A stretch of 64,000 bases of DNA. Origin: a virus. Position 1 is the stretch's first letter, and every line of letters starts with the position of its first letter. The stretch is from the IMG/VR virus record IMGVR_UViG_3300042868_005134, positions 303,636 through 367,635 of that record, one strand, 5' to 3'. Below the pieces are notes generated by a model that saw only the letters and a program-made list of their open reading frames with translations, did no database searches and was not told where the DNA came from. Shown here piece after piece: positions 1 through 58,767 of this stretch. The position numbers and the translations under genes were made by a program.

Positions 1-882
1 TCCACTAATTGGACTAATAGTTACATTTGAGCCCGCTATAATTCTACTTACGCCTGACGTAATGGTATTTGGTGTCCACGCACTACCGTTCCACACCAGA
101 GACTGTCCAATTGTGGGTGTTGCGCTGGAAACGTCAGCAAGATCTTCTAAATTGTGATTGCCAATTGAGCTTACTGTTCCAGTCACATTGCCAATTAGCG
201 ACGAACCTGCCGTAGCAGTTACCACTCCAGTTACATTACCAGTTAAGTTTCCTTGAATGCCGTTGGACACAGTTAAATCTGTATCAACTAGCACACCGTT
301 TGCGCTTGTTAGTATTAACTGCAAATCAGAATCAATAACAAGTCCGTCGCCTACGGCTGTGGAAATATTATTAATGCCAGATGATATTTTGTTGTTACCA
401 CTGAACGTTAGGCCGTTGACACTTACACTATTGTAATTGGAAGTAACAGTGTTGTAGGCTTCTATAACTAAACTATTATTTCGTACAACAATGTTGCCAG
501 TGAATTCATCAGCAATTACCACACCGTCGATATCAATACTGCCAGTTCCTATAACATTAAAGTTGTTTAGGTCTAGATTGCCGCCTAGTTGTGGACTTGT
601 ATCTTCGACTAAGTTGTTTATGCTGTCTGGAGTGGCAATGCTAATATCATTGGCATTTTGTGTAACTGTGATGTTGATGCCAGCATTGATTTTACGCAGT
701 TGAAGATTTTTAGCTACTTTATCTTTAAATATTTCAGCGCCTAAACCTAGGTTAACAGCACTGACAACACGGGTAAGATCTAGCTCTTCGGTATTGCTAT
801 TTACTTTGATAAATGCCGTGCGTAAATCATCGCCGGTGCCGTCGTTAGCATATGAACCTAGATTAACTGTTTGAATTGTCAT
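1..882 (-). CDS. Tail-fibre-like protein, N-terminal part. The gene starts at 882 and continues past the window edge.
   Basis: The minus-strand reading from 882 begins MTIQTVNLGSYANDGTGDDLRTAFIKVNSNTEELD. This matches the conserved N-terminal motif of the 1412-aa and 2588-aa fibre proteins. There is no stop codon before position 1. Confidence 0.6.
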   Translation of the reverse strand, partial: MTIQTVNLGSYANDGTGDDLRTAFIKVNSNTEELDLTRVVSAVNLGLGAEIFKDKVAKNLQLRKINAGINITVTQNANDISIATPDSINNLVEDTSPQLGGNLDLNNFNVIGTGSIDIDGVVIADEFTGNIVVRNNSLVIEAYNTVTSNYNSVSVNGLTFSGNNKISSGINNISTAVGDGLVIDSDLQLILTSANGVLVDTDLTVSNGIQGNLTGNVTGVVTATAGSSLIGNVTGTVSSIGNHNLEDLADVSSATPTIGQSLVWNGSAWTPNTITSGVSRIIAGSNVTISPISG

Positions 883-903
883 AATTCGTTCTCTTTAGTA
901 TAT

Positions 904-1644
904 TTAGCTGGTTCGCACTTTTGCTAAACCTAGACAACTTAATATACGTATATAAAACCATCCTATGTCAAATTCATACCATTTCTGACTAAATTTGGGA
1001 TTTGCTATATCTGCATGGTGATTGTTATGTAGTTCTTCGCCGCCAATCCATATGCCCCATGGCATTAAATTTGTACTTTTATCGTTAGTGTTAGTATTGC
1101 GATAACCCCACCAGTGCGCCATTCCGTTGATAAATCCAGCAGCCCAAAATGGAATCCACAACATTTGTACACCCCACACTAGAAATCCCCATGGCCCAAA
1201 TAATACGAGATCTACGATCAACATTAAGAGAATGCCAAGGCGATGGTGGGGTGTATAAAGTTTACGTTCGATCCAGTCTTTGGGTGTGCCCATTCCGTAT
1301 TTCATAACCATGGCCGCATCACTGCCTGCACGATTGTAATACTTGACTCCGCCAAATACTAGATTCCAAATGCCGTATACGTGTGGGCTATGCGGATCAC
1401 CTTCAACGTCAGTGTTCTGATGATGCTTGCGATGTACTGCTACCCACTGCTTGGTAGTCATGCCTGTAGTCAGCCACAACCAAAAACGCATGGCATGTGC
1501 CAACACAGGATGGAACTCAACACCTCTATGACTTTGACTACGATGTAGGTACAACGTGACACTCACTATAGTCAAGTGCGTCATTAAAAGTGTGATTAAG
1601 ATTATCTCCATTATTAATCCCACGCTCCGCCACTTTGTTGCCAA
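904..1644 (-). CDS. Membrane fatty-acid desaturase family protein
   Basis: It has three histidine boxes: HRSQSH, HRKHH and HNNHH. The protein is hydrophobic with multiple membrane spans. It overlaps the upstream fibre gene by 31 nt. Confidence 0.7.
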   Translation of the reverse strand: MATKWRSVGLIMEIILITLLMTHLTIVSVTLYLHRSQSHRGVEFHPVLAHAMRFWLWLTTGMTTKQWVAVHRKHHQNTDVEGDPHSPHVYGIWNLVFGGVKYYNRAGSDAAMVMKYGMGTPKDWIERKLYTPHHRLGILLMLIVDLVLFGPWGFLVWGVQMLWIPFWAAGFINGMAHWWGYRNTNTNDKSTNLMPWGIWIGGEELHNNHHADIANPKFSQKWYEFDIGWFYIRILSCLGLAKVRTS

Positions 1645-4600
1645 GCACCGTCTGTAAAGATTAAAGTACAGATGCCACCGATATTACTATAATAACCCTC
1701 ACCGGAATTTTCGTATATTCTGAATGGCAATAATGTGCCAACGCCTATATTACGACTATTGGCAACTAATACACTTACGTTGGCCTCAACAACACCATTT
1801 TGTGCCACTAGGTACATGATTTGTCCTTCAACACCATCAGCTAGAGTATAAACACCTTCTGACAGTTTGTTAATAGTCTTAGTTAGGTCTATGGCAGTGG
1901 CTGCGATAACGTTGGTCAATGTGGCCACAGTAAATGTAGTGTCATCAACTCCCATTGTTCCACCTAGTGATCCACCACCTAATACTGTTCCATAATCGCC
2001 AACGCTGAGATTAACAGCACTATCAGTAACCACAGCACTAATGTCGCCGTTAGCTGCCACTGTGATGTCAAGTGTAAATCCTGTACCAAATACTACACCA
2101 AGTACTGTGCCTACGTTTAGGTTAATATTGTTGCTAGGTGATATGGTGACTGTTGCGGCTTCACCTTTGCCTACATCTTCAGCTACTGGACCATTCTTGG
2201 CCACAGTGGTAACACCAGGGTAGGCAGTAGTCTGAACTGTATCATCTGGGAATGTTAATCCACCATCACCTTTTAAAGTCCAACTTTCAAGTCCTGCTGT
2301 CAATACAACATCACTGGCAATGTCAGCCACATACCAAGTCCAGTTGCCACCGCCCGATATTCCCATGTCAGCATAAGGAACAGTTAGTACATCACCGCCA
2401 CCAGATTCGCCACCGCCTGTGTGACCAGAGCCACCGTTGACCACTACAAATGCTGGAGCATGATAGTCTTCGCCATTTGTATTCCAAGTGACATTGACTA
2501 CAATATCAGTTCCAGGAACAGCATAGTTGGATATGGGTGCTGGCGGTAATGAGGCAAAAGATGTATTCAAAATACTGGAAGCACTTTGTATTACTATTAC
2601 ATTCGCCGCGGCACCTGTAGCAGGAGTAACTTCTCCTACACTGCTATTTTTTGGTAATGTCAGTGTACCATCTGTGCCAAAGGTCCAAGTCTTGTACGAT
2701 TCCGCAAATGAAACTGTTTTTGGTCCATCATCAAATCCTGCGGTAATATCTTGGGCAACAAGAATTATCCACCTGTCGGTGTTGGTATCTTCTTGGATAT
2801 CTGTGATTGTAGCAGTTATTGGCGTTCCCCATGCTGTGGTCACAGTACCGCCTATATGAACAGTTGTACCCAAGGCAGGGTATATATTGGAGTCAATAAA
2901 CAAACGCCAAACGCCACCCGGTGGTACAAGCTCATCTACAGTGGCTACAACGACACCACTTACTAGTGGATTTCCTATTTTTATAGATGTATCGTCTACG
3001 TTTTTAATGGTGTTTTGGGGGAATGTTGTAGTACCATCTGTGCCAAATCTCCATACATGCTGAGCACCACCATCATTGTCGTTAGCACCAATCTCAACAC
3101 CGTATGCGGCACTTCCTTGATATGACTCAGAGCGTTGAAGAACATAGTTGAAGTCATCACCAAAGTACAAGTCCATGCTATTTTGACCAGTGCCTTTCAT
3201 AACGTGGAAGTGAGTCGTGCCGCCCGGTTCTGGTAGTGCGCCGAACTCTAATGTGCCACGGCTAGTACTCATAGTGACAACACCGTTGTTGTCTATACCA
3301 ACTGAGTATTGGCCGTTGTCTATACTGTTGATAGTGCCAATGCTACCTTGTGTGTACAGTGTACCGACTAGGTCACTGGTAAGATCAAAGTCTGGATCAA
3401 AATCAGTTATGGTAAACGCACTGGCATAGTTGATGTCTGTTTTGGCAGCGTTAACCACTGCGATATTGCTGGCAGACTCATCCAATAGTCCGCTAAATGT
3501 AGCAGCCTTAAAGTCATAGTCTCCGGCCGCAAATACCGTTCCGTCACTAGTAAACTGTGCCACAATGGCGTGGCTAACTGTGCCACCTGGATCACCGTAG
3601 CCTCCGCCTACTGCTACATAACCTGATTTAACTGCCAGATTACTGCCACCTCCTTGTGGACCGAACCAAACGCCACCACTAAATGTCCAAGTGGTTGTGT
3701 TGTCCAACAATCTCTGCCATACCACAGTACCGTCTAGATTATACTTGGCAATGACCATGCTGTAGTCGCTAGTATTGTTATTGCCAGTTATTGCCGATAG
3801 GTATAGACAATCGTCAGGACCAACTACAATACTGTTAGCAAAATCATCACAATCGCCTACTACCTTACGTGTCCATTGTTTAACACCTAGGCTGTTAAAC
3901 TTGATGATGATCATGGCGTTGTCATCATCAAACAGTTGAGGTCCTTCATAGACATAGTTTCCGCAAACATAGATGTTGCCTTCACTGTCTATATCAGCAT
4001 CTGCTCCCTTACAGTTAAATCCTGCGTCAACTTGTATGGCTCGCTGCCATTGTATTGCACCATCGCTATCGTACTTAACAACTAACATACGATCGTCATA
4101 CTCGTTAGCAGCCAGTGAGCCAACTTTAACAACCATGTCGTCTACACCTGTTACTCCACCAAATGCAGAGCCGTTGAGGGTAACGAGAGTTCCGTCTACT
4201 GTACGACCACCCACAAGGTCAACAATGTTGGTAAATGTTGGAACGCCATCAGTAAAATCAACGCTGAAGGTAAACTCACCACCAGTTGCGCTAGCACCCA
4301 GTGTCCAGTTGGGATTGCTTGCTGGCACAGTATACAGGGTGGCCGCCGCATCGATGAGACCCAGTTGATCCATGTAGCCTACAGTGACTACTTCATTGGT
4401 TGGACCAACAGCCATGCCATAGGCTTGTTCACCACCTTGTCCATTCAGTGCTCTTGACCAAGTGATTGCTCCAGTACTAGCGTTGATTTTACTAGTGACT
4501 ATTTGACTGTCTGTGCCGTTATCGGCATAACCAACTACAATAGGACTACCATCCGATGCCACATCAACTACTGAGTTGGTGTTATCGTCACCAACATTGT

Positions 4601-5504
4601 ACTTCTTGCTCCATACTACATTGCCATCTAGTTGACTAAGTTTAGTTAAAATAGCAGTTTCAGATTCTGTATCATCGGCAACACCTGCAACATAGATAAA
4701 CCCATTAACATTGTCCACTGCCATGCCCCAGCCGTCAGTTGTTGTGGCACCTTGAAAGGCCATACTCCAAATCTTTGTGCCAAGAGAATCAAATCTTGCC
4801 ACACTATTGAATCGACCGCTAGCGATAGTATCATGATTGATTAAGGCAACAATGTCACCGTTGGCCAAATATTCAACACTTGCGGCCATCTCTGGTACAT
4901 CAGCAGGTGCTCCTGCTGCGGTTTCAAAATCCTGTACCCACACATTAAGGTTGTTGCCAGGGTAGGCAGTGGTCTGTACTGTGCTGTCAGGGAATGTAAT
5001 GTGACCAGCTTGATCAAACATCCAAGTTTTTGATCCCAGAGTATTCTCAGCGGTAATGGTCACTGACTTATCATCATCACTTACGCTGACATTATTCTGC
5101 TCACCGCCTAAGATTAGATTAGCACTACTTTGATCTATTGTACCACCAGCACGAATGTGTATGTGATTGGGGCCAGTGGGATCTATGACGAGATATCGAT
5201 GGTCGCCGTAGTCACCTTCAAATTCATCGTTACCGCGGTATAGAACAGCGTCTGGGATCAGTTTGATAGTGTCTAAACCTTCGCCATCACCGCTGTCGGC
5301 ATTTCCGCCGTAGAATATACCTTTGCTTAATACTTTACTTCTTATGTTTTGTCTAACACCGTCAAACATCAAAAGTTCTAAGTTGCCATTATCGGTATTT
5401 TCATAAACCCCAAGTTCACCGCGAGGGCGAATTTCACTACTACTGTTGTTGTTGGCGTTGTCGCCTTCAATCTTGCTTGTTACTATTTTGCGTACTGTTG
5501 TCAT
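1614..5504 (-). CDS. Large tail fibre / adhesin protein (1296 aa)
   Basis: It carries two copies of the 'W.F..G.LTFPD.TVQTTAYPG' repeat shared with the neighbouring giant ORFs. The composition is rich in Gly, Ser, Thr, Asn and Asp, typical of beta-structure. Confidence 0.7.
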   Translation of the reverse strand: MTTVRKIVTSKIEGDNANNNSSSEIRPRGELGVYENTDNGNLELLMFDGVRQNIRSKVLSKGIFYGGNADSGDGEGLDTIKLIPDAVLYRGNDEFEGDYGDHRYLVIDPTGPNHIHIRAGGTIDQSSANLILGGEQNNVSVSDDDKSVTITAENTLGSKTWMFDQAGHITFPDSTVQTTAYPGNNLNVWVQDFETAAGAPADVPEMAASVEYLANGDIVALINHDTIASGRFNSVARFDSLGTKIWSMAFQGATTTDGWGMAVDNVNGFIYVAGVADDTESETAILTKLSQLDGNVVWSKKYNVGDDNTNSVVDVASDGSPIVVGYADNGTDSQIVTSKINASTGAITWSRALNGQGGEQAYGMAVGPTNEVVTVGYMDQLGLIDAAATLYTVPASNPNWTLGASATGGEFTFSVDFTDGVPTFTNIVDLVGGRTVDGTLVTLNGSAFGGVTGVDDMVVKVGSLAANEYDDRMLVVKYDSDGAIQWQRAIQVDAGFNCKGADADIDSEGNIYVCGNYVYEGPQLFDDDNAMIIIKFNSLGVKQWTRKVVGDCDDFANSIVVGPDDCLYLSAITGNNNTSDYSMVIAKYNLDGTVVWQRLLDNTTTWTFSGGVWFGPQGGGSNLAVKSGYVAVGGGYGDPGGTVSHAIVAQFTSDGTVFAAGDYDFKAATFSGLLDESASNIAVVNAAKTDINYASAFTITDFDPDFDLTSDLVGTLYTQGSIGTINSIDNGQYSVGIDNNGVVTMSTSRGTLEFGALPEPGGTTHFHVMKGTGQNSMDLYFGDDFNYVLQRSESYQGSAAYGVEIGANDNDGGAQHVWRFGTDGTTTFPQNTIKNVDDTSIKIGNPLVSGVVVATVDELVPPGGVWRLFIDSNIYPALGTTVHIGGTVTTAWGTPITATITDIQEDTNTDRWIILVAQDITAGFDDGPKTVSFAESYKTWTFGTDGTLTLPKNSSVGEVTPATGAAANVIVIQSASSILNTSFASLPPAPISNYAVPGTDIVVNVTWNTNGEDYHAPAFVVVNGGSGHTGGGESGGGDVLTVPYADMGISGGGNWTWYVADIASDVVLTAGLESWTLKGDGGLTFPDDTVQTTAYPGVTTVAKNGPVAEDVGKGEAATVTISPSNNINLNVGTVLGVVFGTGFTLDITVAANGDISAVVTDSAVNLSVGDYGTVLGGGSLGGTMGVDDTTFTVATLTNVIAATAIDLTKTINKLSEGVYTLADGVEGQIMYLVAQNGVVEANVSVLVANSRNIGVGTLLPFRIYENSGEGYYSNIGGICTLIFTDGAWQQSGGAWD

Positions 5505-5519
5505 TTTATTCGCCCTTGA

Positions 5520-8500
5520 TTAATCGTAATATTCTGAACCGTAGAACACTGTAGCGGTCCACTGTATTTTTAATGTATGATTGTCACCATCTAATCGACG
5601 ATACTGAATTTCGCCTTCGTTGGGCACAAACCACAGGTCATCATTTTCACCATCCTCGCCGCCACTTTGTACTTCGGTGTGAGTAATATGTTCTTCACCA
5701 TCGTCATCTACTATGTGTATGGTTCCTATCCAAGTAGCATCACCGGTGTAAGCGTGATATTTGATAACGGCACCTCGGAAGTTGCTACCGCCACTAGGTA
5801 AGTCGTCTTTATCCCACCAAGTCACCGGAGCACCGCCTGTAAGTATTCTATAGTAAACTGTGTCACCTTGGGCAACTGGTAATCTAACGCCGTTGTCAAA
5901 GTAAATGGTTACATTATCGTTGTCCCAGCTGGTGGCTGTTCCAGTAGCCCAATCGTCTTCGTTTAACGAAACTTGTACACGATAATAAACATTGCCGTTC
6001 GCCAATGCTATAAGAGCATCACGTGCTGCACCTACAGCACTGAGACCAACATAACCAGTATTATTTGAATTATTACTGAATACTGTAGTTGTAACTGTGT
6101 CGTCTGTTGTTCTCGAAGTCACACTAACTTGCTTGTAGCCATATACTTCTTCAATTCTGCGTTCGCCTGGCGAACGAAGTTTAACACGGCCTATACCTTC
6201 TGCAGAAGTTAGTCGTGTACCGTCTCGGAATCTAATACCTGTCTCTAAGCTATCTAAGTCCAACTCTTGACGAGTATAACTGGCGCCGCCACCTTGATTG
6301 TTATTAGTCCAACTTAAAAACTCTATGGCCCAATATTTGTCAGTGGTGGTATCAAGCATAATCATCTTGGCGCCTGGTATGTTGGCAAAGTTTCCGCCCC
6401 AGATGCTTTCTAATGGTCTGTATGTTCTTGACTCAACATTGCTGAAATCATCCCAGCCGTCGTTGTTCCATAAACTGCCTGTGGGAGTATTAGTACCGTG
6501 CTCTTCATCTTCTAATGCGTTATACAGCCAACCTTGATCGTCTTTAGTGATGTGTAGTCCTTCACTGATCTCGTCAATTTCGTCACCGTAGTCGGTTCTA
6601 GTAAATGTTATCAACGGACCTGCGTATGGATCACCTATGATGTTGATATGTGACACCGCATTGTCAAAAGTCTGAGCGGCTATGTTTGGTCCATAGATAT
6701 TACCGCTGATTATTGCGCTGCCAGAGTCTGGACCGCTACCACTAGTACCAATAGTAGTACTTGAGTTGCCGGTAACAAACAATCCAAATATACTGTCTCG
6801 GTAAACAAAACTATATGATGATCCTGTGCCAAATGCTGCTGCACCGTCGACTACAGTATTTCCACCGTTATAGGCAATCTCATTTAGGTATGAACTGTTA
6901 ATATAGTTGCCGCTGTCGTACTCATCTTCGCCACCATCACTGATATTGTTGTTTCTCCATACTACTGGAGCAGTTCCTGAACTGGTACTGCCATATGCTT
7001 CGCCGAGGCCGCTAATGCTGTTAACTGTTATAGTAATGTTGTTGGCAGGTGTTGTACCACCAGTAATGTTGGCTCCCAGCAAGGTTATCACATCACCTAC
7101 TACATAGTTAGTTCCGTAACTGCTTATGCCGACATAAGTTTCATATTTGTACACAACGGCCACGCTAAATCCGCTACCTACATTATAGTTGGTGCCTGTG
7201 ACTGGTCCGTAAGTAAAAAATTCAGTACCTGCGGCTACGCCTTCCACACTCCAGTTCAATATCCCTTCTGAATCAACGCTGTTTACAGTTATGATACAGT
7301 CGTTAACACCGTCAACGCCACCTAATGCACTACCTAAAATCTTGATCTTGTGTCCTGGTAGATAGTTAATGCCACCACTTATCACACCAGAACCGTTGTA
7401 AGTGCCATCGCCTAAGTCTTGAATCTCAAATATCGCACCACTACCTTCTCTAACTGTAGTTGGGCCGCCATCGATTACGTTTATATTATTTTCAAAGAAT
7501 TCAAAGTTAGTGGCTACGCCGCCCACTGCTGTGACTAGGTCTGCGTAGGCAGCGTCAAATGCTGCCTTCATTTGATCCACTGTGCGGAATTCGCCTTCTG
7601 TCCCTTCAAACAAGATCACAGTATCTATAACTTCTTCGGCAAATGCTGTAATGTCGCTAAGTGGTTTAGCCCCGTTGACATCGCCTATGATGACAAACAT
7701 TGCCAGTATATCACTAGAGCCTACACCTGACACTTGGAAGAAATCATCGTTGCTGTCATCTGTGATAGTGGTAGTTGTGGCCGCTGGTTTGTGTATGACT
7801 ACTTTGGTAACATTTCGTGTGCTACTTTGACCGGTGTTAGTATGGAAACCACCGTAGGAAACTTGTAGTCCCTTGTAATCTGTGCCAGTCTCTGCTGGTA
7901 CTGTGACTGTGGGCAATCCTTCGCCGCCACCCAATACCGAGTTACCTGCGCTGTCTTTAATATCGCCGCCTACCGGTAATGTTAAATCACCATCTGCGCC
8001 AAACGTCCAACCGTGAGCAGTAGGAGTAGGACCACTGTAGGTATATATTTGAATATCTTTGTCAACAGCACCGTCTATGATAAATGCATCTGTTCCGTCA
8101 GCGGTGGCAATTGTGGTGCCTTGTGGGAATGTTAATGCACCACTGTTGTTAAATGTCCAAGTATGAGCATCTGTACTGTAGTTTGTGGCAATAGTAGCGC
8201 CATTGTTGTCAACCCACACCCACGAATCTTCATCCTTGCCTGCTGGGCTTGCTGGGCCTGCTGTGATACCAGCATAGTTGCCTGCTATGGTTTTTAGTGT
8301 AGCACCGTTGATGATACTCTGATCTGGCAATACAACAACACCTGTGGTAGTTAGTTCTAGTCTATAATGCTGTGTTGGCTGTGTGATATCGCTACTGAAT
8401 AGTTTATTAGTAACAACTTTGTCGTCGTCTGTTAAACTAAATCCTTCACCAAAGTCTCCAATAGATATTCCACCACCACCGGTTACAGTACTGGTTAAGG

Positions 8501-8717
8501 TGTTAGTTGTTGAATCGTATGCGAATGTAATCCCAGTATGATTGCCATTGACAAACAAGGGCGCAACACGATCCTGGGTTATGTTTTCAAGTTCCGGACC
8601 AGTGTATATGGTAGAGTTAACCATCCACTTTTCACCGTCCCATATATAAACAGCCCCATTAGGTGCTGTGTATAACTCACCATTAGCTGGATCTGTTGGA
8701 AATGTAATTGCTGTCAT
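5520..8717 (-). CDS. Large tail fibre / adhesin protein (1065 aa)
   Basis: It contains the 'WTF..G.LT.P' fibre repeat units and has a Gly/Thr/Ser/Asn-rich composition. It is arranged in tandem with the other fibre genes. Confidence 0.65.
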   Translation of the reverse strand: MTAITFPTDPANGELYTAPNGAVYIWDGEKWMVNSTIYTGPELENITQDRVAPLFVNGNHTGITFAYDSTTNTLTSTVTGGGGISIGDFGEGFSLTDDDKVVTNKLFSSDITQPTQHYRLELTTTGVVVLPDQSIINGATLKTIAGNYAGITAGPASPAGKDEDSWVWVDNNGATIATNYSTDAHTWTFNNSGALTFPQGTTIATADGTDAFIIDGAVDKDIQIYTYSGPTPTAHGWTFGADGDLTLPVGGDIKDSAGNSVLGGGEGLPTVTVPAETGTDYKGLQVSYGGFHTNTGQSSTRNVTKVVIHKPAATTTTITDDSNDDFFQVSGVGSSDILAMFVIIGDVNGAKPLSDITAFAEEVIDTVILFEGTEGEFRTVDQMKAAFDAAYADLVTAVGGVATNFEFFENNINVIDGGPTTVREGSGAIFEIQDLGDGTYNGSGVISGGINYLPGHKIKILGSALGGVDGVNDCIITVNSVDSEGILNWSVEGVAAGTEFFTYGPVTGTNYNVGSGFSVAVVYKYETYVGISSYGTNYVVGDVITLLGANITGGTTPANNITITVNSISGLGEAYGSTSSGTAPVVWRNNNISDGGEDEYDSGNYINSSYLNEIAYNGGNTVVDGAAAFGTGSSYSFVYRDSIFGLFVTGNSSTTIGTSGSGPDSGSAIISGNIYGPNIAAQTFDNAVSHINIIGDPYAGPLITFTRTDYGDEIDEISEGLHITKDDQGWLYNALEDEEHGTNTPTGSLWNNDGWDDFSNVESRTYRPLESIWGGNFANIPGAKMIMLDTTTDKYWAIEFLSWTNNNQGGGASYTRQELDLDSLETGIRFRDGTRLTSAEGIGRVKLRSPGERRIEEVYGYKQVSVTSRTTDDTVTTTVFSNNSNNTGYVGLSAVGAARDALIALANGNVYYRVQVSLNEDDWATGTATSWDNDNVTIYFDNGVRLPVAQGDTVYYRILTGGAPVTWWDKDDLPSGGSNFRGAVIKYHAYTGDATWIGTIHIVDDDGEEHITHTEVQSGGEDGENDDLWFVPNEGEIQYRRLDGDNHTLKIQWTATVFYGSEYYD

Positions 8718-8746
8718 AATATTTTATCCTATTCTTATATTTATTG

Positions 8747-11700
8747 TTACCAAGTACCTGCGCCGTGTGCCGTACGTTTCCAGATGTCTGTGGTGTCATT
8801 AACATAGTTTGCTGTACAATAATAGATGTACGTGGAATCAAATGCCAACATACCTGCTTGATCGCCGGCTGCTCCATAACTGTGTGCTGGGACTGCTACT
8901 TTCTGATAAGCTGTGGTCTGTACTGTGGCGTCTGGGAATGTAATCTGCCCACCTGATGCCAAAATCAATCTATCAGCATTGATATATTGAAAATAATCAA
9001 TTGAGTTTGTACTTCCGCCTGTGCCTGAAGATGATGCCAAAGTTGAGTTTGGTTTATCAAACACGCAGTTGAAAATTGAATAAAACCCTGATAAAGAAAC
9101 TGGAGCAACGGCAGTTAATGCTGAAGTTAATATTTGGCAATTGGCTAAACTGACCACAGTTGAGGCACTAGATGTGACAGCGTTTGTGACAGCTGCAATT
9201 ACTACGGCATCTACAACATTTAATGTTCCTGCAATTACCGATGGGGCAATACAAGACATACTATTTTTGATAATTACACTTGCACCAGCATTATTCACTG
9301 TTACAAAAGATGGATTACCATCATTAATAGTCACAAGTCCATTGCCTGTTATATTACAAGCGGTGCCAATGTCACAGTTGTGTATATCAGTAAAAGTGGC
9401 ATTTCCACTTTTAGTTAATGTTCCACTTATATTACAATTAATAATATTAGGAACTCCAACACCTGTACCAGCAGTAATGGTAAGATTTTCAATTGTTAAT
9501 CCTGTAATTGTACAGCCCACAGATGTACTGACTGTTCCAATAATCGCAGTATTCCCACCCAATGGTTCAAATGTGGTTAAGACTGTGTATTGAACTGTTA
9601 TTGTTGGGCTTTCAGTATAGGTGCCTGGGTGAATAATAATTGTTCTACGTTGCCCACTTATCAAAGTCAACGCCTTGGTGATGGATGCTACTGGTTTAAG
9701 CAGGTCGCCATTACCACTGGTGTCGTTACCGTCAGTTTGACTAACGTGGATTTCATAGTCATATCCAGTAAAGATACCTGGGTAGGCTGTGCTTTGAACT
9801 GTGTTGTCGGGGAATGTTAAACCGCCCGTTGTGCCAAACTGCCATTGCTTACCAACTGCTGTGCCTGTAATAGTAGTAGTCAATATCCCTCCACCACCGT
9901 TTATTGTGGCAACCGTGATTTGTATATCATTGGCAGGTGTAGTACCACCAAGTTCATTGCCTGGAATTTTGAACCAGTTGCCCGGGTTAAACCCATTACC
10001 AATACCAGTGACATCAACAGTATAAGTGCCGTTTTGATTGGCTGTCACTGTACAGGCAAAATATTGTGCGTTGGACGAAGGTGTAAACATTCGTGTGACA
10101 TTTGCATTCAATGCTTCCCAATAGGCTTGATTAAATGTGTAAGTTGTTGTTGAATGGGTTGCTATGTTTAATGCTGTTTCATTTGTAAGAATAGAACTAT
10201 CTGCGGGCAATGTTAATGCACCATCTGTGCCAAATCTCCAGAGCTTAAAGCTCTCAACTGAGTTAGCAAAAATAGAAAACTCTCGCTCACTGGTTATTGC
10301 TAACCCAGTTGCATTTTCCCCAATCGTTCCATTTGAATCTCCTGGTAGTGTTAATGTACCATCCGTGCCAAATCCCCAAGTCTTATAGTCACCGTCCGCC
10401 TGCTGTTTTGCGCGAATAACAACATCGCCAGACATTGTAATGCTACTGAGGCCTGGATTAGTTAGACGTATATTATTATGCCACGATTCAATCAGCTGTA
10501 GAAAGGGCAGTTGTATAATACCCTTTCTATGAGTTGGATTGCCGGTGCCCTCTTCGATGTTGTCAAATGCCCATACGACTGGATAATCTGGTTGGGCAGG
10601 ATCATTGGCCCAAATCCCAACACCGGTAGTACCCTCTATATTGCCTTGAGATAATACTAAGTGTCCGTAATTATCAAGAGTCGCTGTGTGAACACCGTTG
10701 ACTAAACTATTTACACTGCCAGTCCATGCCGTAGTTTGAACTGTGCTATCTGGGAATGTCAATGCACCATCGTTGCTAAATGTCCAACGCTGTAGTGTAG
10801 GGCCAGCAGGATCAATGTCGATGTTGATGTTGCCCAGGCTCCTGATGTCACCTGGGATTCGTAAACTTCCATCTCCGGCGAATTGCCAACTATGGCTCAC
10901 ATCTTGGTCATTGAGTAATCCTATGTTAAGTCCAGTAACGCCAGCATATATGCCAGCAGTCTGTACATCTTCTCCAACAGGAAGTTGATTATTTCCCGCA
11001 GTCCACTCCACGACTAATTGATTCAGACCAGTGTGAACTATATAAAGACTACCGTTGGGACTGGTGTTAGTAATCTCGGCGTGACCGTTAGCACCACCAA
11101 ATCTAAGGCCGACTGGAGTTGTCAAATTACCATCTGTGTCAAACGTCCACTCATTCTCATTGGCAAGTATACTGATGTTGCTACTTGTTCTTGTTGAATA
11201 ATTTGGACTCTCAACTGAATATGGTGCTGATTCTAGAGGAAGGTTAGCATCAAATGTTAATTCTAAAATTGTGTTGCCTTCTACATATTCGGCGGCAAGT
11301 ACTGTGTAGTAATCGGTTGTGCCGTCAGGATTAAATTGCCAGTCAACTAGGCCTGTGGCATCCATAGCGTCTTTCAAACTTTGTGGAGTAGTATCCATCC
11401 AGAACCCAGCTGTCTTAGCGTTGATGTCTGCACGAATCCATCCTGGGATATCAGTGAGTCTAGTACCAACTTCTGGAGTTGTTAGCGTTTGAATAACACC
11501 GCCCACTGGTAATGTTAATTCACCGGCGTCACCAAAAGTCCAGGCGTCGTCAATTATGCCAGCACCAGGGGTTGTGGTTTTTATCAGTACCTTACTATTG
11601 TAGCCATCAATCTCAACGACTGCGGTTTTCCCACCTCCACCATCTACGTTTAGTTGTAGGTTGTCAAATCCCTTAATGGCTTTGTTGCCGGGAACAGATA

Positions 11701-12985
11701 AATCGCCAGCATTACTAAAATTCCAAGTATGCCCCGCTACTTGAATATCTAAGTAGATTGGTTCTAGTGCTGACCCTAATGCCAACCATGCAGTTCGTAC
11801 TGATTGAGCAAGCGGTATCCATTCTGGTCGTATAGCAGGATCAGTAGATAATAGCAATGCATTGTAAGAGTTTGGTCCTGCTGGCCAGCCATCGCCTTCA
11901 TAGCTGTCTGCCGCAAATGCCGCGTTCAACTGTTCTCTACTATTATCATAGGCGAGTTCTAAATCTTGTAACACACTGATGTCACCAACTGCTACAGTTG
12001 CCGAGTCTGGCAATGTTAGTTTACCATCTGTGCCAAACTTCCAAGTGTATTGGTCAATGCCGCTTAGTGTACGAACGAATACAGATTTGTTTGATGAGCC
12101 TAACACTATACCAGGATCAGTATTGTCATTTAAAGTTATAACACCATCTTGTAATACTATAGTTCCCGGAACTGTTAGCATACCTATTTCATCTAATACA
12201 AGTTCTGAAGTACCGTTAACTAATCTATCAGTAATGCCGGTAATGCTAACAGCACTGACCCACTGATTGTTATAGTACACATACAGGTTGCCGTCATTCA
12301 TGTTCCACCAGACGTTACCTTCTGTAAGTGGATTTGGCGCACTTAAAGAAAATTGTACTTGCGTTCCTGGATCGCCTTGCGGCCCTGGATCGCCATTAGT
12401 GCCATTAATTCCAGCTAGCCCTCTAGGTCCTTGCTCGCCTTGTGGTCCCGTTTCACCGTTTGTTCCATTCGTTCCGTTTGTGCCAGGATCGCCTTGATCA
12501 CCCTTAATGCCACGTGGTCCTTGTGCGCCAACTTCACCTTGAATTCCTTGTGCTCCGTCAAGGCCGTTTGCACCAGCATCTCCTTGATCACCTTTTAATC
12601 CACGTGGTCCAACTTCTCCTTGCGCACCAGTTTCTCCCGTAAACCCGCGAGGTCCAATATCTCCTGTGTTGCCTTTGAGACCTCTGATTCCGGCTGGACC
12701 TTCTAGACCTTGTGGTCCAATTTCACCTTGCGGTCCTTGTACTCCTGCATTCGCACTGGTCCACACACCTGAATAGTAAACATACAGATTACCATCGGTT
12801 GTATCCCACCACAAATCGCCTTCGCCTGGCGATACTGGCGGACTTGCTGATGTACTAACTACGCCAGTTGCAATTACACTACTGTAAAGTTCAGTAAAGT
12901 TGTCATTTACTTTGTCAAAAGCTGTACGCAACGGATCGCCATTGCCACTATCTGCTGTACCTAAATTTATTGATTGTTGTGACAT
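8747..12985 (-). CDS. Tail fibre protein with a collagen-like Gly-X-Y segment (1412 aa)
   Basis: The N-terminus is MSQQSINLGTADSGNGDPLRTAFDKVNDNFTELY. About 130 aa of uninterrupted GxY triplets (GPQGEIGPQGLEGPAGIRG...) are encoded near 12.30–12.72 kb. It also has several 'W.F..DG.LTFPD.TVQTTA' repeats. Confidence 0.75.
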   Translation of the reverse strand: MSQQSINLGTADSGNGDPLRTAFDKVNDNFTELYSSVIATGVVSTSASPPVSPGEGDLWWDTTDGNLYVYYSGVWTSANAGVQGPQGEIGPQGLEGPAGIRGLKGNTGDIGPRGFTGETGAQGEVGPRGLKGDQGDAGANGLDGAQGIQGEVGAQGPRGIKGDQGDPGTNGTNGTNGETGPQGEQGPRGLAGINGTNGDPGPQGDPGTQVQFSLSAPNPLTEGNVWWNMNDGNLYVYYNNQWVSAVSITGITDRLVNGTSELVLDEIGMLTVPGTIVLQDGVITLNDNTDPGIVLGSSNKSVFVRTLSGIDQYTWKFGTDGKLTLPDSATVAVGDISVLQDLELAYDNSREQLNAAFAADSYEGDGWPAGPNSYNALLLSTDPAIRPEWIPLAQSVRTAWLALGSALEPIYLDIQVAGHTWNFSNAGDLSVPGNKAIKGFDNLQLNVDGGGGKTAVVEIDGYNSKVLIKTTTPGAGIIDDAWTFGDAGELTLPVGGVIQTLTTPEVGTRLTDIPGWIRADINAKTAGFWMDTTPQSLKDAMDATGLVDWQFNPDGTTDYYTVLAAEYVEGNTILELTFDANLPLESAPYSVESPNYSTRTSSNISILANENEWTFDTDGNLTTPVGLRFGGANGHAEITNTSPNGSLYIVHTGLNQLVVEWTAGNNQLPVGEDVQTAGIYAGVTGLNIGLLNDQDVSHSWQFAGDGSLRIPGDIRSLGNINIDIDPAGPTLQRWTFSNDGALTFPDSTVQTTAWTGSVNSLVNGVHTATLDNYGHLVLSQGNIEGTTGVGIWANDPAQPDYPVVWAFDNIEEGTGNPTHRKGIIQLPFLQLIESWHNNIRLTNPGLSSITMSGDVVIRAKQQADGDYKTWGFGTDGTLTLPGDSNGTIGENATGLAITSEREFSIFANSVESFKLWRFGTDGALTLPADSSILTNETALNIATHSTTTYTFNQAYWEALNANVTRMFTPSSNAQYFACTVTANQNGTYTVDVTGIGNGFNPGNWFKIPGNELGGTTPANDIQITVATINGGGGILTTTITGTAVGKQWQFGTTGGLTFPDNTVQSTAYPGIFTGYDYEIHVSQTDGNDTSGNGDLLKPVASITKALTLISGQRRTIIIHPGTYTESPTITVQYTVLTTFEPLGGNTAIIGTVSTSVGCTITGLTIENLTITAGTGVGVPNIINCNISGTLTKSGNATFTDIHNCDIGTACNITGNGLVTINDGNPSFVTVNNAGASVIIKNSMSCIAPSVIAGTLNVVDAVVIAAVTNAVTSSASTVVSLANCQILTSALTAVAPVSLSGFYSIFNCVFDKPNSTLASSSGTGGSTNSIDYFQYINADRLILASGGQITFPDATVQTTAYQKVAVPAHSYGAAGDQAGMLAFDSTYIYYCTANYVNDTTDIWKRTAHGAGTW

Positions 12986-12999
12986 TGTTATTTCCTATA

Positions 13000-15900
13000 T
13001 TAAGCGAATGTAGCATCTAAGTTATACCAGTCGCCACCTACCCCACTAGTTGCTCCCAGTCCGCAAATGAATTCCAATCCAGCACCGGGGACAATGGGAG
13101 CTGCACTAGGATCATCGGCAGCGCCGCCATTAATAGTAGCGCCGGCTTCTGGGTATATTGCCAGGTCGTTTAATCCATTATTTCTAATAAAGATTTTATA
13201 TCCTGCCACAGCCACAGGCAATTGAACCTTGCCGCCCAGCGGGCATACAGTAATTATGTTAATATCTTTTGAGATTAACGTACCAGTGCCAGTAGTGATA
13301 GCTGTCACTGAACTATTAACACTAAATTGAGCGTGCCCACTTATGCTTAAACTGGTCAACGTGCCCACACTGGTCAAACTAGAATTTATCACAGTACTTG
13401 CCAATGTAGTTCCAGTTAGTGAATTAGCATCCCCATCAGGAATTACAAGTTCATTCCATACCGGTGGAAACCCGGTACCTTGACTTTTTAGATACCTACC
13501 CGATGTTCCAGGCGCTAAGAATGTGGTGGCATCAACAGCACTTTGATAAGGAATATAACCAACTAATCCGCCTGCCAAGTTAGTGGCTGTTGTTGCTGAT
13601 GAAGCTGTGCCAGTTAAATTGCCTATAAATGTAGTAGCATATACCGTATTGAATTTGTTAGCACTGTTACCTAAATTACTTGTTGCATCTGTTTTAACTA
13701 TACTACTTGCTGCCGCTGTTTGACTTACACTTTGTACACCCAAGTACACAACAGTATCTATATTTGAAACTGTGGGACTAGTTGGTTCCACTGTAAATGA
13801 CAAGTCGTTAGCGGGTGTTGCGCCACCCAATAACAAACCTGACACAAACAACTGATCACCTTCAGCATAACCCTGCCCGCCGTATGTCACCGCAACACCA
13901 GAATATGATCCGCCACTGCGACCCACAGTTACTCTTGCTCCAACACCACTGCCTGAAATACCGCTTACTGGAATATCCAAGAAATCTCCAGAGCCGCTTA
14001 TGGCAACACCTGCTATGGTAATAAAACTAGATGACGTTTTTAAACTGTTGACTCGACGAGTCATTACAAAAGCACCGTCATCCACTGCGGTAAACAAACT
14101 GTTAATACCATTCTGAACAATGCCACTGGCTGAAACTTCTTGAACAGATGCCGCTGAGCCAGTCAAGTTTCCTAAAATAGTACCTGCTGCAACGTCTTGT
14201 ATTTCTGCGTAGACAATGCCTTTGTCTTTAATAGTAACAGCACCAGCTGTAACACTAAAGTTGTCTGTGCTAAAACTTGCTTTACCTAACGCACTATCTG
14301 TTGCAGTATCTACATAGGCAGTCACGTTGGTTAAGGCAAGTTTAGTTTGCTCAATAGCAGCAATGGCACTAACGTCAGCATTAACTATTACACCTGGTTG
14401 TATTTGTAAATTAATACTGCTATTGTCTAATCCAATTACCGTAGCACCGGTCAAATGATCTGCTGCCACTGTCAAGAACTTGGCTCGTGTCACTCCATCG
14501 AAACGGTTTGACACAGGAGTTGTTCCTGAATATTGAAATACTTCACTGTCAATTTTTATAAAACCTGAAATTGGAAATCCAGTGATGTCCACTATGGTAA
14601 TAGTACTGGCAGTACTTGCAAGCAGATAATCAGCAGTTATGGTAGACATATTTGAACTGGTAAATGTTCCTCCGATGTCTCCACTTAAACTGGTACTAAC
14701 TACATGCTTGCCAGCACCAGTAAACGCCATGATGTCTCCAGCACCGGGAGTCATTAGATTAACTTCTTTCAGTTCTGTCAATTGATCGAATGCTGCAACC
14801 TGTAAGTCCACATAGGCTTTTGAAGTAGCTTCATCGTTACTTATTGGTGTAAGCGATAGATTGAAAATTCTGTGGTTTGAGCCACCGCCGCCCATATCCA
14901 AATCAGCACTCAGTTGTGGGCTGTTGTACACTGATAAGAATCCACCAGTCAATGTTGGAATTCTATCAGCTGCAGGCACAATGGCACCACCGTGTGTGTA
15001 GCCTAATCTCTTGTCAATATAACTTCTAATAGCACTTTCTACGGGTACCGTATCGTCGGCATTGTCAGTCATGGTAGAATCCGTTGAGAATTCTTTCACA
15101 ACCGTACCACGTTTGAACCCAATACCGTCTAAGTTACTCAAGGCAATACTTGCCGCAAATGTAACTGTTCCAGTTCCTTGGTCAACAGTAAAGAACTTAC
15201 CAACACGGAAAATACCAAATTGATCTGTACTTACGTAGAATACACGACCTGAAGTTTCTTCTACAGCTTCGTTAGCTCTTATAGGAGTTTGCGTTGGAGC
15301 ACCCAACAAGTTATTTGGATAATTGGTGGTATTAAAACCACCACTACCTATATCTAAGAAGTCATGACCTGTGGCACGACATGTACTGATATTAACAGTA
15401 ACTTCACCCGGAGAGCTTGCTTGTAAACTTGCTCTCAATGTAGTGCTTCTTGTTTCTGTGAATACAGTTCGTATACCAGTGGCAGTTGGATCAGTGGTTG
15501 GATCTATAATAGTTCCAGCACCCCATGCCTTGGGACTGGATTGAATGGTTATGTGTGCGGGTATAGGACCAGCTGCAACTACATATCCTGTAACAACGTG
15601 CATTCTACCATCCCAACAGAATACCTTATCTCCAGCATTCAGTTTGGCCTTGGTTGAATCACTGGTTATTTCTACCACAGCAATCTTTACATCGCCCACT
15701 GCACTTCCGTAACCACCTGTTAACATGGTAGGATCAGTTTGAATAATTACATGATCGAAACTGTTATCAAATGATAGGATAGCCTGATCACCATAACTGA
15801 TACTGCCAACCGCAGTCGTTCCAGCTGACACAGCAGTACCACTATTTAAATAACTAAATTCAGTTGGACTAACATATGTCACTGACACTGATGTAGTTGT

Positions 15901-20767: not shown

Positions 20768-21121
20768 TTATTCCCCTACGTGATCGTAGAACTCATCTGC
20801 TACTGAAAAACTGCTTCCGCAACCGCATGTTGTTTGTGCGTTGGGATTTTTGATAGAAAACGTAGCGCCCATAAGATCTTCTTTATAATCTATTTCAGCA
20901 TCGTTTAAGTATGTCATACTCATGCTGTCCACAAGCAAAGAAACGCCTGATTTTTCAATACTGAAATCGTCATCGTTTTGTGCTTCGTCAAAGGTAAACC
21001 CATAGCTCATGCCGCTACAGCCCCCGCCTTGTACAAAAACACGCAATTTTAAGTTAGGATTGCTTTCTTCGGCTATTAAGTCTTTGATTTTTTCTACGCA
21101 AGAATCTGATAGTGTTAACAT
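20768..21121 (-). CDS. A-type iron-sulfur cluster carrier (IscA/ErpA/HesB family)
   Basis: It has the conserved 'GGGCSG ... C-G-C-G-S-S-F' cysteine motif of the family. Its length of 117 aa is typical. Confidence 0.8.
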
Positions 21122-22920: not shown

Positions 22921-23475
22921 TTATTCAAACAAGTTTTCATTCCATTCTCTATGACCTTCTCGGAAAGCCATATTGCTTTGTGTCTCACGCACTTCAACAC
23001 GATAACACCACAGCCGCTTGCTTTCGCCTTCACCCCACATCTCAGGAATGTAAACTCCGTTAACGTATTTGTAAAGCATATCGCTAAGACCTTCACAGCC
23101 TAGTTTTGGAAGAACAACAATTTTAGCCATGTTACGTTCTTGTAGCAGTTTGAATGTAGCCATTTCTGGATCATCTTGCGCCACAATAAGTGTATGATCA
23201 AATTGGTCTTCTAGGATCTTTTTAAGTTCTTTTAAACCACCATAGTCTGCCGCCCAATTACGAACGTCGAGATCATTAGTTCCAAAATAAAACTTCATAC
23301 TAAACGAGTAACCGTGAATTAAATTACAGTGACTGTCAGATCGCCATTGGCGATAAGCGCAAGGGAATGAGTCGTGATACTCTTTTGTGCTTGTGTACTT
23401 ATACAACACCGGTTTAGTGTTTTCTAAGTTGTCTTCTAAGTGACGAATTAAGTCACTGGTTGATGATATTGCCAT
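22921..23475 (-). CDS. queD: 6-pyruvoyl-tetrahydropterin synthase / QueD family protein
   Basis: It has the diagnostic 'SDSHCNLIHGYSF' motif (Cx5HGH). Its length of 184 aa fits the family. Confidence 0.65.
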   Translation of the reverse strand: MAISSTSDLIRHLEDNLENTKPVLYKYTSTKEYHDSFPCAYRQWRSDSHCNLIHGYSFSMKFYFGTNDLDVRNWAADYGGLKELKKILEDQFDHTLIVAQDDPEMATFKLLQERNMAKIVVLPKLGCEGLSDMLYKYVNGVYIPEMWGEGESKRLWCYRVEVRETQSNMAFREGHREWNENLFE

Positions 23476-30957: not shown

Positions 30958-31548
30958 TTACGGACGTTTTGTTATGATTTCGTCAATCAATCCATAATCC
31001 AGTGCTTCTTGTGCGCTCATAAACTTGTCACGTTCCATATCAGCACTAAATTGAGCAAAGGTTTTACCTTTACTATTGTGGGCAACATAGATTCCGGTTA
31101 GCTCTTTTTTCATTTTCAAAATCTCTTCCACTTGAATCTGCATATCTGTAGCTTGTCCACGGGCGCCGCCACTGGGCTGATGAATCATGTGTCTAGCAAA
31201 CGGCAACATCTTACGCTTGCCTTTCGCACCCGCTGTGGCTAGCAAACTGCCCATACTACAGGCCTGCCCCATAACCACAGTACAAACATCGGGTTTGATA
31301 AACTGCATTGTGTCGTAGATGGCCAAGCCCGCCGTAACTACACCCCCAGGGCTGTTGATAAAGAATGTGATATCTTCATTACCTTGGCTTTCCAAAAACA
31401 GCAACTGAGCCACTAGTAAACTGGCACTATGCTCATTCACGTCCGTGTCTAGCATCACAATACGATCTTTAAGTAGTCGACTATAAATGTCGTAACTGCG
31501 TTCTCCTCGAGCTTCTTGCTCGATTACCATAGGCACTAAATTAGGCAT
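30958..31548 (-). CDS. clpP: ATP-dependent Clp protease proteolytic subunit ClpP
   Basis: The full-length alignment matches ClpP-like motifs: 'GQACSMGS' (Ser), 'HQPSGG' (His), and the 'RIVMLD...INSPGG' core. Confidence 0.85.
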
Positions 31549-58600: not shown

Positions 58601-58603
58601 ATA

Positions 58604-58680: not shown

Positions 58681-58691
58681 ATTTAAATTTT

Positions 58692-58766: not shown

Positions 58767-58767
58767 A

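What the first reader, a model, noticed from the sequence alone, without database searches (positions are those of the whole stretch)
904..1644. Membrane fatty-acid desaturase gene nested inside the tail-fibre operon
It has the three canonical His boxes HxxxxH, HxxHH and HxxHH in a polytopic membrane protein. It overlaps the 1296-aa fibre gene by 31 nt and is followed by another fibre gene. An auxiliary lipid-desaturating enzyme could alter host membrane fluidity during infection. Co-transcription with virion genes is unexpected.
Basis: partly seen in the sequence, partly recalled or inferred. Interest (0 to 1): 0.55.

Follow-up and report, generated by a model that had tools for sequence, protein, structure and literature searches.

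The report
Phage-borne minimal DesA-type lipid desaturase
An uncultured jumbo phage carries an intact, strongly conserved copy of a bacterial membrane-lipid desaturase inside its tail-fibre gene cluster; phage desaturases of other subfamilies are already known, so this is a new member of a known kind of host-manipulating gene.

Summary
The ORF is real and is a desaturase. It lies on the minus strand and ends at 904. Its conserved start is ATG 1611 (235 aa), not TTG 1644, so the reported 31-nt overlap is an ORF-calling artefact; the true gap is 2 nt.

It passes Pfam PF00487 and the NCBIfam DesA-family equivalog. It has HRSQSH, HRKHH, HNNHH and NGMAH, with His-box spacing identical to Pseudomonas DesA. 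Stearoyl-CoA desaturase is the only solved fold it matches.

The closest 81 of 391 IMG/VR matches were examined. All are about 235 aa, form one clade and are under strong purifying selection (median dN/dS 0.07). Cellular relatives (55-61% identity) carry an extra C-terminal segment of about 145 aa, often ISL3-transposase-like, which the phage copies lack.

The gene sits co-directionally in a run of giant fibre-like genes on a 236-kb contig. That position holds only for close relatives. In related phages (74-81% identity) it lies among ordinary non-structural genes, so a functional link to fibres is unlikely.

Phage desaturases are already described in cyanophages, pelagiphages and cryopeg and Lake Baikal viruses. 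Verdict: a new member of a known kind, of modest interest.

The parts
904..1611 (-). Desaturase CDS, 235 aa plus stop, from the conserved ATG at 1611-1609. It is a DesA-family membrane desaturase core.
   Evidence: ORF. Start set by homologues. Family assignment from Pfam and NCBIfam. dN/dS is 0.07.
1612..1644 (-). In-frame extension back to TTG 1644.
   Evidence: The top 120 homologues are almost all 234-237 aa. In relatives an in-frame stop lies one codon upstream of the ATG.
1528..1545 (-). His box 1, HRSQSH (aa 23-28).
   Evidence: invariant H23, H28. It aligns to SCD1 HRLWSH.
1420..1434 (-). His box 2, HRKHH (aa 60-64).
   Evidence: It aligns to SCD1 HRAHH.
1114..1128 (-). NGMAH (aa 162-166). 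It aligns to SCD1 NSAAH, which from my recollection of the SCD1 structures supplies the ninth metal-binding His and a water-bridging Asn.
1015..1029 (-). His box 3, HNNHH (aa 195-199).
   Evidence: Read directly from the sequence. It aligns to SCD1 HNYHH.
1543..1611 (-). N-terminal hydrophobic helix (aa 1-23), predicted transmembrane.
   Evidence: Kyte-Doolittle analysis. The AF2 model has a helix at 2-27.
1129..1254 (-). Long hydrophobic block (aa 120-161), predicted membrane hairpin.
1614..5504 (-). Upstream 1296-aa gene, a putative fibre or adhesin. Its stop lies 2 nt before the desaturase ATG.
   Evidence: It has no Pfam, PHROG or PDB hit. It shares repeats with the collagen-type 1412-aa fibre protein.
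1..882 (-). Downstream gene, 329 aa on full contigs, running off the window. It has a fibre-type N-terminus.
   Evidence: Its N-terminal motif is shared with the 1412- and 2588-aa proteins.
5520..20766 (-). Three further giant co-directional genes (1065, 1412 and 2588 aa) of the same fibre-like cluster. The 1412-aa protein has collagen repeats.

Best explanation
The gene encodes an intact, functional, phage-borne membrane desaturase of the proteobacterial DesA family: an O2-dependent di-iron enzyme. It is reduced to the catalytic core. It keeps one N-terminal transmembrane helix, the cytosolic His-box domain and a membrane hairpin. It lacks the C-terminal extension of about 145 aa found in cellular DesA.

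By analogy with Pseudomonas aeruginosa DesA, it most likely inserts a cis-delta-9 double bond into saturated C16 acyl chains already esterified in the host's inner-membrane phospholipids, using host electron donors. That would raise membrane unsaturation and fluidity during infection without needing host de novo fatty-acid synthesis.

In this phage lineage the gene has lodged in the recombination-prone tail-fibre cluster. It is probably transcribed with that cluster, and possibly translationally coupled to the upstream gene through the TAA-TA-ATG junction.

Shown: family membership of the core, intactness, purifying selection, phage-specific short architecture, and genomic context. Inferred: regiospecificity, substrate, electron donor, timing of expression and physiological benefit.
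For: Family and active site:
- PF00487 and NF049918 are both above their curated cut-offs.
- The protein is 55-61% identical over its whole length to DesA genes of Lysobacter, Aquitalea, Marinobacterium and others.
- His boxes lie at 23/60/195, giving spacings of 37 and 135. These equal those of the experimentally active Pseudomonas sp. A3 DesA at 34/71/206 (PMC4975390).
- The nine His positions and the Asn are invariant and align to the SCD1 motifs.
- Foldseek finds only SCD1 structures (probability 1.0, TMq 0.63).

Function retained:
- Median dN/dS is 0.07 over 602 viral pairs.
- 391 IMG/VR stretches encode relatives; the 81 closest loci examined all have the same length of about 235 aa.
- The viral sequences form a clan in 100 of 100 bootstraps.

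Mechanism by analogy:
- DesA acts on 16:0 at sn-2 of existing phospholipids (PMC10634369).
- Pseudomonas DesA is active in E. coli without a co-expressed partner (PMC4975390).
- Phage desaturases of another subfamily were shown to be active delta-9 enzymes (PMC5776448).

Context.
Against: - No biochemical data exist for this protein or for any short DesA form.
- The NCBIfam score clears its cut-off by only 1.6 bits, because 145 of 385 profile positions are unmatched.
- The AF2 model has moderate confidence (pLDDT 69) and low confidence around His box 3.
- No ferredoxin, flavodoxin or cytochrome b5 gene was seen in the 64-kb window. The rest of the genome could not be surveyed.
- The host is unknown.
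- The role of the missing C-terminal domain is unknown, so its loss might change activity or regulation.
Confidence: 0.75

Rival explanations
1. It is an active di-iron membrane enzyme but with a different substrate or chemistry from DesA. Examples are an acyl-CoA or acyl-ACP desaturase, a different double-bond position, or a hydroxylase acting on another lipid. Loss of the C-terminal domain and the diverged sequence after His box 2 would have changed its specificity.
For: - The region after box 2 differs: phage HRKHHQNTDVEGDPHSP versus cellular HRKHHAKCETEEDPHSP.
- The viral clade is long separated from cellular DesA, with at most 62% identity.
- The FA_desaturase superfamily is known to switch regiospecificity with few substitutions (general knowledge).
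Against: - About 60% identity with identical His-box spacing usually preserves regiospecificity.
- The only NCBIfam model matched is the DesA equivalog.
- The C-terminal end of the phage protein coincides with the end of the SCD1 catalytic core, so nothing catalytic appears to be missing.
Confidence: 0.15
2. The desaturase is functionally tied to the fibre or virion genes. For example, it would prepare the membrane for fibre assembly or lysis late in infection, or modify a lipid linked to receptor recognition. Its position in the fibre operon would then be selected for.
For: - It is co-directional, with a 2-nt gap upstream and 21 nt downstream, and no minus-strand terminator.
- The same placement is seen in relatives of at least 85% identity even though the flanking fibre genes are mosaic, at 47-100% identity.
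Against: - In related phages the desaturase (74-81% identical) lies among small non-structural genes, often on the opposite strand to its neighbours. These phages share homologues of window genes at 60-88% identity, for example the AAA protein at 48867-49967.
- Fibre regions are general recombination hot-spots where accessory genes accumulate (general knowledge).
Confidence: 0.07
3. It is a decaying, C-terminally truncated remnant of a captured host desA with no function.
For: It lacks about 145 aa present in the full-length cellular homologues retrieved from GTDB genomes.
Against: - dN/dS is 0.07.
- Length is identical across the 81 viral loci examined.
- All metal ligands are invariant.
- The clade is deep, down to 63% identity within it.
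- Other short-form clusters exist in the wider family.
Confidence: 0.02

Closest known systems
Pseudomonas aeruginosa DesA (PA0286) and the proteobacterial DesA family (NCBIfam NF049918): aerobic delta-9 phospholipid acyl desaturases
   Same: - 55-61% identity over the whole 235 aa.
- The same three His boxes with the same spacing, and the same short N-terminus with one hydrophobic helix before box 1.
- The same NxxxH motif.
- It scores above the equivalog cut-off (PMC4975390; PMC10634369).
   Different: - It lacks the C-terminal extension of 140-157 aa, which is ISL3-transposase-like in 4 of 6 long forms tested.
- It is 11 aa shorter at the N-terminus than Pseudomonas DesA.
- The sequence after box 2 has diverged.
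- It is encoded by a phage and forms its own clade.
Cyanophage vFAD-I and vFAD-II (Roitman et al. 2018, PMC5776448)
   Same: They are phage-encoded membrane delta-9 desaturases regarded as auxiliary metabolic genes. They have three His boxes and are widespread in metagenomes.
   Different: - Those are DesC-like (cyanobacterial or plant acyl-lipid type) with HXXXHH-type boxes, and occur in T4-like cyanomyophages.
- This one is DesA-like, in a PA5oct-like jumbo phage lineage.
Other reported viral desaturases: cryopeg and sea-ice vFADs (PMC7300359), the Lake Baikal virus acyl-CoA desaturase (PMC7678222), pelagiphage desaturases (PMC11480375, PMC7029224) and Pelagibacter phage Mosig
   Same: They share the concept and the fold. 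The Lake Baikal viral population also carries an Fe-S cluster biosynthesis gene, as this window does (20768-21121).
   Different: - Pelagibacter phage Mosig's protein is only 24% identical (E 6e-4).
- No record among 50,697 GenBank phage records carries a DesA-type copy.
- Relationship to the cryopeg and Baikal sequences was not tested.
Mammalian stearoyl-CoA desaturase SCD1 (PDB 4YMK, 4ZYO, 6WF2)
   Same: The only solved fold matched. The His boxes and the NxxxH motif align, and the phage protein ends where the SCD1 core ends.
   Different: - About 21% identity.
- SCD1 extends well beyond the aligned core at its N-terminus; from my knowledge of the structures this includes an additional transmembrane helix.
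- SCD1 uses acyl-CoA and cytochrome b5.

Membership tests
Membrane fatty-acid desaturase superfamily (Pfam PF00487) | HMM score above the gathering threshold | tested here: met
   42.8 bits against a cut-off of 29.7, covering profile positions 7-222 of 253.
Membrane fatty-acid desaturase superfamily (Pfam PF00487) | Three His boxes (HX3-4H, HX2-3HH, H/QX2-3HH) on the same side of hydrophobic segments | tested here: met
   HRSQSH, HRKHH and HNNHH are present and invariant in 37 homologues. Hydrophobic blocks lie at aa 1-23 and 120-161. Sidedness was not tested.
DesA family (NCBIfam NF049918, equivalog) | Whole-protein score above the curated cut-off | tested here: met
   401.6 bits against a cut-off of 400. 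The margin is narrow because only profile positions 8-240 of 385 are matched.
DesA family (NCBIfam NF049918, equivalog) | His-box spacing of characterised DesA (34/71/206 in Pseudomonas sp. A3) | tested here: met
   Phage boxes lie at 23/60/195, so the spacings of 37 and 135 are identical (PMC4975390).
DesA family (NCBIfam NF049918, equivalog) | Full-length architecture of about 385-395 aa with a C-terminal soluble extension | tested here: not met
   All 81 viral loci stop 0-3 aa after the core. Full-length cellular homologues continue for roughly 116-157 aa. The extension is not encoded elsewhere in the window or in the viral loci.
DesA family (NCBIfam NF049918, equivalog) | Delta-9 desaturation of 16:0 at sn-2 of existing phospholipids | not testable with these tools
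   This needs expression and lipid analysis. It is known for P. aeruginosa DesA (PMC10634369).
SCD1-like fold | Structural match to the stearoyl-CoA desaturase core with aligned metal ligands | tested here: met
   Foldseek gives probability 1.0 and TMq 0.61-0.63 to 4ZYO, 6WF2 and 4YMK, with no other hit below E=1. The profile hit to 4ymk has E 1e-8. Model confidence is moderate (pLDDT 69).
Phage auxiliary metabolic gene | Encoded on a bona fide phage genome, flanked by phage genes on both sides | tested here: met
   It lies in the middle of a 236-kb contig among fibre, collagen and Mtd_N genes. It is found in 391 IMG/VR stretches. Other window genes relate to PA5oct-like jumbo phages.
Phage auxiliary metabolic gene | Expressed during infection and alters host metabolism | not testable with these tools
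   The only related evidence is strong purifying selection.
Cyanophage vFAD-I/II (DesC-like) | DesC-type His boxes (two HXXXHH plus HXXXXH) and clustering with cyanobacterial DesC | tested here: not met
   The boxes here are HX4H, HX2HH and HX2HH. The best family is DesA and the nearest cellular relatives are Gamma- and Betaproteobacteria. Motif description is from PMC5776448. No direct alignment to vFAD sequences was possible.

The most novel reading that the evidence does not exclude
The phage clade is a natural minimal DesA. Its hundreds of strongly conserved copies would show that the C-terminal, ISL3-transposase-derived domain of proteobacterial DesA is dispensable for catalysis. That domain would then be a regulatory or partner-docking add-on. 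The phage would deploy a deregulated, constitutively active desaturase, in this lineage translationally coupled to late fibre genes, to remodel existing host phospholipids when host lipid synthesis is shut down.
Probability: 0.3. Interest if true: 0.45.

Novelty: new member of a known kind. Interest (0 to 1): 0.3.

Why it matters
It extends phage-encoded lipid desaturases from the cyanobacterial DesC type to the proteobacterial DesA type. It shows that such genes are widespread in an uncultured lineage of jumbo phages: 391 IMG/VR stretches, and none in GenBank phage records.

The uniform loss or absence of the DesA C-terminal domain offers a ready-made construct for asking what that domain does in bacteria. 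The enzyme acts on existing phospholipids, so it is a plausible way for a phage to tune membrane fluidity after host biosynthesis has stopped.

None of this overturns current ideas. The placement among fibre genes appears incidental.

Tried and rejected
- Megablast of window 1-6000 and tblastn of the desaturase against 50,697 GenBank phage records found no match at E<=1e-5. At E<=10 only Pelagibacter phage Mosig (24% identity) and an Acinetobacter phage (24%) appeared.
- A search for the missing DesA C-terminal domain as a separate gene in the window and in 82 viral loci found nothing. A split gene is therefore rejected.
- I tried to decide whether the short form is ancestral or a secondary loss, using an NJ tree rooted on SCD1. 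The result is unresolved: the viral clade is monophyletic in 68 of 100 replicates and nested among long forms in 73 of 100.
- The promoter and terminator scan of 1-6000 showed no excess of promoter-like sites and no minus-strand terminator. It is uninformative beyond being compatible with read-through.
- Pfam, PHROG and PDB sequence searches for the 1296-aa and 1065-aa neighbours gave no hits. Their fibre assignment rests on shared repeats and N-termini with the collagen-type protein and on Mtd_N genes downstream.
- A first Biopython NJ bootstrap timed out and was replaced by a numpy implementation.
- The pseudogene hypothesis was rejected by the dN/dS result.
- A search of the window for an electron-donor gene (ferredoxin, flavodoxin, cytochrome b5) found none among the Pfam-annotated genes. 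The whole genome could not be surveyed.
- A literature search for 'jumbo phage' together with 'fatty acid desaturase' returned no papers.

Full report
**Observation**

Window 904-1644 on the minus strand is an uninterrupted ORF of 246 codons if counted from TTG 1644. The upstream 1296-aa ORF ends with its stop at 1616-1614. The minus-strand sequence there reads GGCGGAGCGTGGGAT-TAA-TA-ATG-GAG.

The top 120 database homologues are almost all 234-237 aa and begin at the Met encoded by ATG 1611. That Met is nearly invariant. In many related loci an in-frame stop lies one codon upstream of it. The real CDS is therefore 904-1611 (235 aa). The '31-nt overlap' is an artefact of taking the first possible start codon; the true gap is 2 nt. 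One public gene call on a 236-kb contig uses Met10 instead, giving 226 aa. That would remove half of the N-terminal hydrophobic helix and is less likely.

The His boxes are present as described: HRSQSH (aa 23-28), HRKHH (60-64) and HNNHH (195-199). NGMAH (162-166) is also present. Hydrophobic blocks at aa 1-23 and 120-161 match the helices of the structure model.

**What it is**

- Pfam PF00487 scores 42.8 bits against a cut-off of 29.7.
- The NCBIfam equivalog NF049918, 'DesA family fatty acid desaturase', scores 401.6 bits against a cut-off of 400. It covers only profile positions 8-240 of 385.
- PHROGs gives only a family of unknown function.
- A profile of 37 homologues hits mouse and human stearoyl-CoA desaturase in the PDB (E 1e-8). 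All His boxes and the NxxxH motif align, and the alignment runs to the last residues of the phage protein.
- An AlphaFold model has moderate confidence (pLDDT 69, pTM 0.72) and is weak around aa 178-208.
- The model finds only SCD1 structures by Foldseek (probability 1.0, TMq 0.61-0.63). The next hit has E about 4.
- The His-box positions 23/60/195 give spacings of 37 and 135 residues. These are identical to the 34/71/206 reported for the Pseudomonas sp. A3 DesA, which raised palmitoleate when expressed in E. coli (PMC4975390).

**Relatives**

IMG/VR holds 391 stretches encoding relatives. The best 80 are 74-100% identical, and several lie on contigs of 100-300 kb. In one-genome-per-species GTDB the best matches are 55-61% identical and belong to Gamma- and Betaproteobacteria such as Lysobacter, Luteimonas, Aquitalea, Marinobacterium, Methylococcus and Burkholderiales.

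Extending every match to its stop codon gives a clean split:
- All 81 viral loci end 0-3 residues after the core.
- Full-length cellular genes continue well beyond the core, typically for 140-157 residues.
- The one apparent exception is a 7.6-kb contig binned into a 'Bifidobacterium' MAG, whose copy is short. It groups with the viral sequences and is probably a mis-binned phage fragment.

The cellular extension is a helical soluble segment. In 4 of 6 long forms tested it matches Pfam DDE_Tnp_ISL3 above threshold, at 27-54 bits. It is not encoded anywhere else in the window or in the viral loci.

In an NJ tree the viral sequences form a clan in 100 of 100 bootstraps. Minimum identity within the clan is 63% and maximum identity to cellular sequences is 62%. 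Rooting on SCD1 does not resolve whether the short form is a secondary loss or ancestral. Other short-form clusters at 37-51% identity exist in the 1.8-billion-protein library.

Pairwise Nei-Gojobori dN/dS over 602 viral pairs with dS between 0.05 and 1.5 has a median of 0.07 and a maximum of 0.20. The short protein is therefore under strong purifying selection and is not a remnant.

JGI's automatic annotation already calls these proteins 'stearoyl-CoA desaturase (delta-9 desaturase)'.

**Context**

The window corresponds to the middle of a 236-kb metagenomic contig (JBFDEP010000420.1). It has 38 tRNA genes. Its other genes are distantly related (about 33% identity) to PA5oct-like Pseudomonas jumbo phages and to Stenotrophomonas and Sinorhizobium phages.

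The desaturase sits in a co-directional run of genes of these sizes:
- 2588 aa
- 1412 aa (collagen repeats; PHROG tail-fibre hits)
- 1065 aa
- 1296 aa
- the desaturase
- 329 aa
- 191 aa (Mtd_N)
- 1031 aa (Mtd_N)
- 764 aa (Peptidase_S8)

The 329-, 1412- and 2588-aa proteins share an N-terminal NLG..NDGTGD.LR.AF.KVN motif. The 1296- and 1065-aa proteins share internal repeats with the 1412-aa protein. The flanking genes are thus one mosaic fibre-like family, although the 1296-aa protein has no database hit of its own.

Gaps are 2 nt upstream and 21 nt downstream. No minus-strand terminator-like site and no excess of promoter-like sites occur in 1-6000. Co-transcription is a reasonable inference but has not been demonstrated.

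**Is the position meaningful?**

In relatives with at least 85% identical desaturases the same arrangement recurs. The flanking fibre genes range from 100% down to 47% identity or are replaced, while the desaturase stays at 88-95%.

In relatives with 74-81% identical desaturases the gene lies among ordinary genes of 100-700 aa, often on the opposite strand to its neighbours. Those loci belong to related phages. They carry homologues, at 60-88% identity, of window genes that lie 27-49 kb away from the desaturase here. One example is the AAA protein of 48867-49967, which is found 3-6 kb from the desaturase in L030 and L050.

The gene has therefore moved within this phage group. Its residence in the fibre cluster is lineage-specific, as expected for an accessory gene in a recombination hot-spot. 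This argues against a functional coupling to virion genes.

**Mechanism**

This section is inferred. P. aeruginosa DesA introduces a delta-9 double bond into 16:0 chains at sn-2 of existing phospholipids, independently of the FabA/FabB pathway (PMC10634369). With about 60% identity and identical ligand geometry, the phage enzyme most likely does the same in the host inner membrane. It would use O2 and host reductants.

Pseudomonas DesA works in E. coli without a co-expressed partner (PMC4975390). No ferredoxin, flavodoxin or cytochrome b5 gene was found in the window. Acting on pre-formed lipids suits a phage that has shut down host biosynthesis.

The benefit is speculative. It could be fluidity in cold water, membrane expansion, or lysis.

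**Comparison with what is known**

- Phage desaturases were first described in cyanomyophages and shown to be active delta-9 enzymes in yeast (PMC5776448).
- They have since been reported in cryopeg and sea-ice viruses (PMC7300359).
- They were reported in Lake Baikal viruses, together with ferredoxin and Fe-S biosynthesis genes (PMC7678222).
- They were also reported in pelagiphages (PMC11480375, PMC7029224).

The present gene differs in subfamily (DesA rather than DesC), in carrier (an uncultured jumbo-phage lineage) and in being a C-terminally minimal form. No GenBank phage record has a close homologue.

**Verdict**

This is a new member of a known kind. The 'unexpected' operon placement is incidental, and interest is modest.

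Noticed in passing
L086, L091, L104 and L127 (cellular DesA genes), residues about 245-390 of each protein: The C-terminal extension of about 145 aa in proteobacterial DesA matches Pfam DDE_Tnp_ISL3 (profile positions about 80-195 of 240) above the gathering threshold in 4 of 6 long forms tested. This suggests a domesticated transposase fragment fused to the desaturase. Its function is unknown, and the phage copies lack it.
   Followed up: partly
window 52110-60685 (minus strand): There is an array of 38 tRNA genes covering nearly all amino acids, interrupted by a radical-SAM gene (55626-57044) and a nitroreductase gene (57078-57743).
   Followed up: no
window 20768-21121 (minus strand): An IscA/HesB-type Fe-S cluster biosynthesis gene (PF01521, 73 bits) lies directly upstream of the 2588-aa fibre-like gene. 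A Lake Baikal viral population was reported to combine an Fe-S biosynthesis gene, ferredoxin genes and an acyl-CoA desaturase (PMC7678222). A possible link to metal or electron supply for the desaturase was not tested.
   Followed up: partly
window 27880-28554, 30958-31548 and 31557-32438 (minus strand): Further membrane-directed accessory genes are present: a Bax-inhibitor-1/YccA family protein (182.8 bits), and an SPFH/Band_7 protein next to a ClpP-family protease. Together with the desaturase this suggests broad manipulation of the host membrane.
   Followed up: no
window 1-20766 (minus strand) and L167: The giant genes are paralogous mosaics. Three share an N-terminal NDGTGD.LR.AF.KVN motif and two share repeats with the collagen-type protein. 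Across related contigs they vary from 47 to 100% identity, while the embedded desaturase stays at 88-95%.
   Followed up: partly
window 22921-23475, 61895-62956 and 62980-63573 (minus strand); L001 8947-9537: The window has a QueD-like PTPS, a radical-SAM/4Fe-4S enzyme and a class-I glutamine amidotransferase. A related contig has a faint QueC hit beside the desaturase. This could indicate a 7-deazaguanine DNA-modification pathway.
   Followed up: no
window 38103-38852 (plus strand): A 249-aa protein matches only the C-terminal half of the AMP-binding (acyl/aryl-CoA ligase) domain. It sits in one of the few plus-strand gene blocks, in a low-GC stretch (34-38%) of the window.
   Followed up: no
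L082 (CAZCDW010000126.1, binned as uncultured Bifidobacterium): This 7.6-kb contig carries a short-form desaturase that is 66% identical and groups with the viral clade. It is probably a phage fragment mis-binned into a MAG.
   Followed up: partly
L167 17134-17814, versus window 904-1611: The public gene call on the 236-kb contig starts the desaturase at Met10 (226 aa). JGI and other calls use Met1 (235 aa), so start-site annotation is inconsistent across databases.
   Followed up: yes
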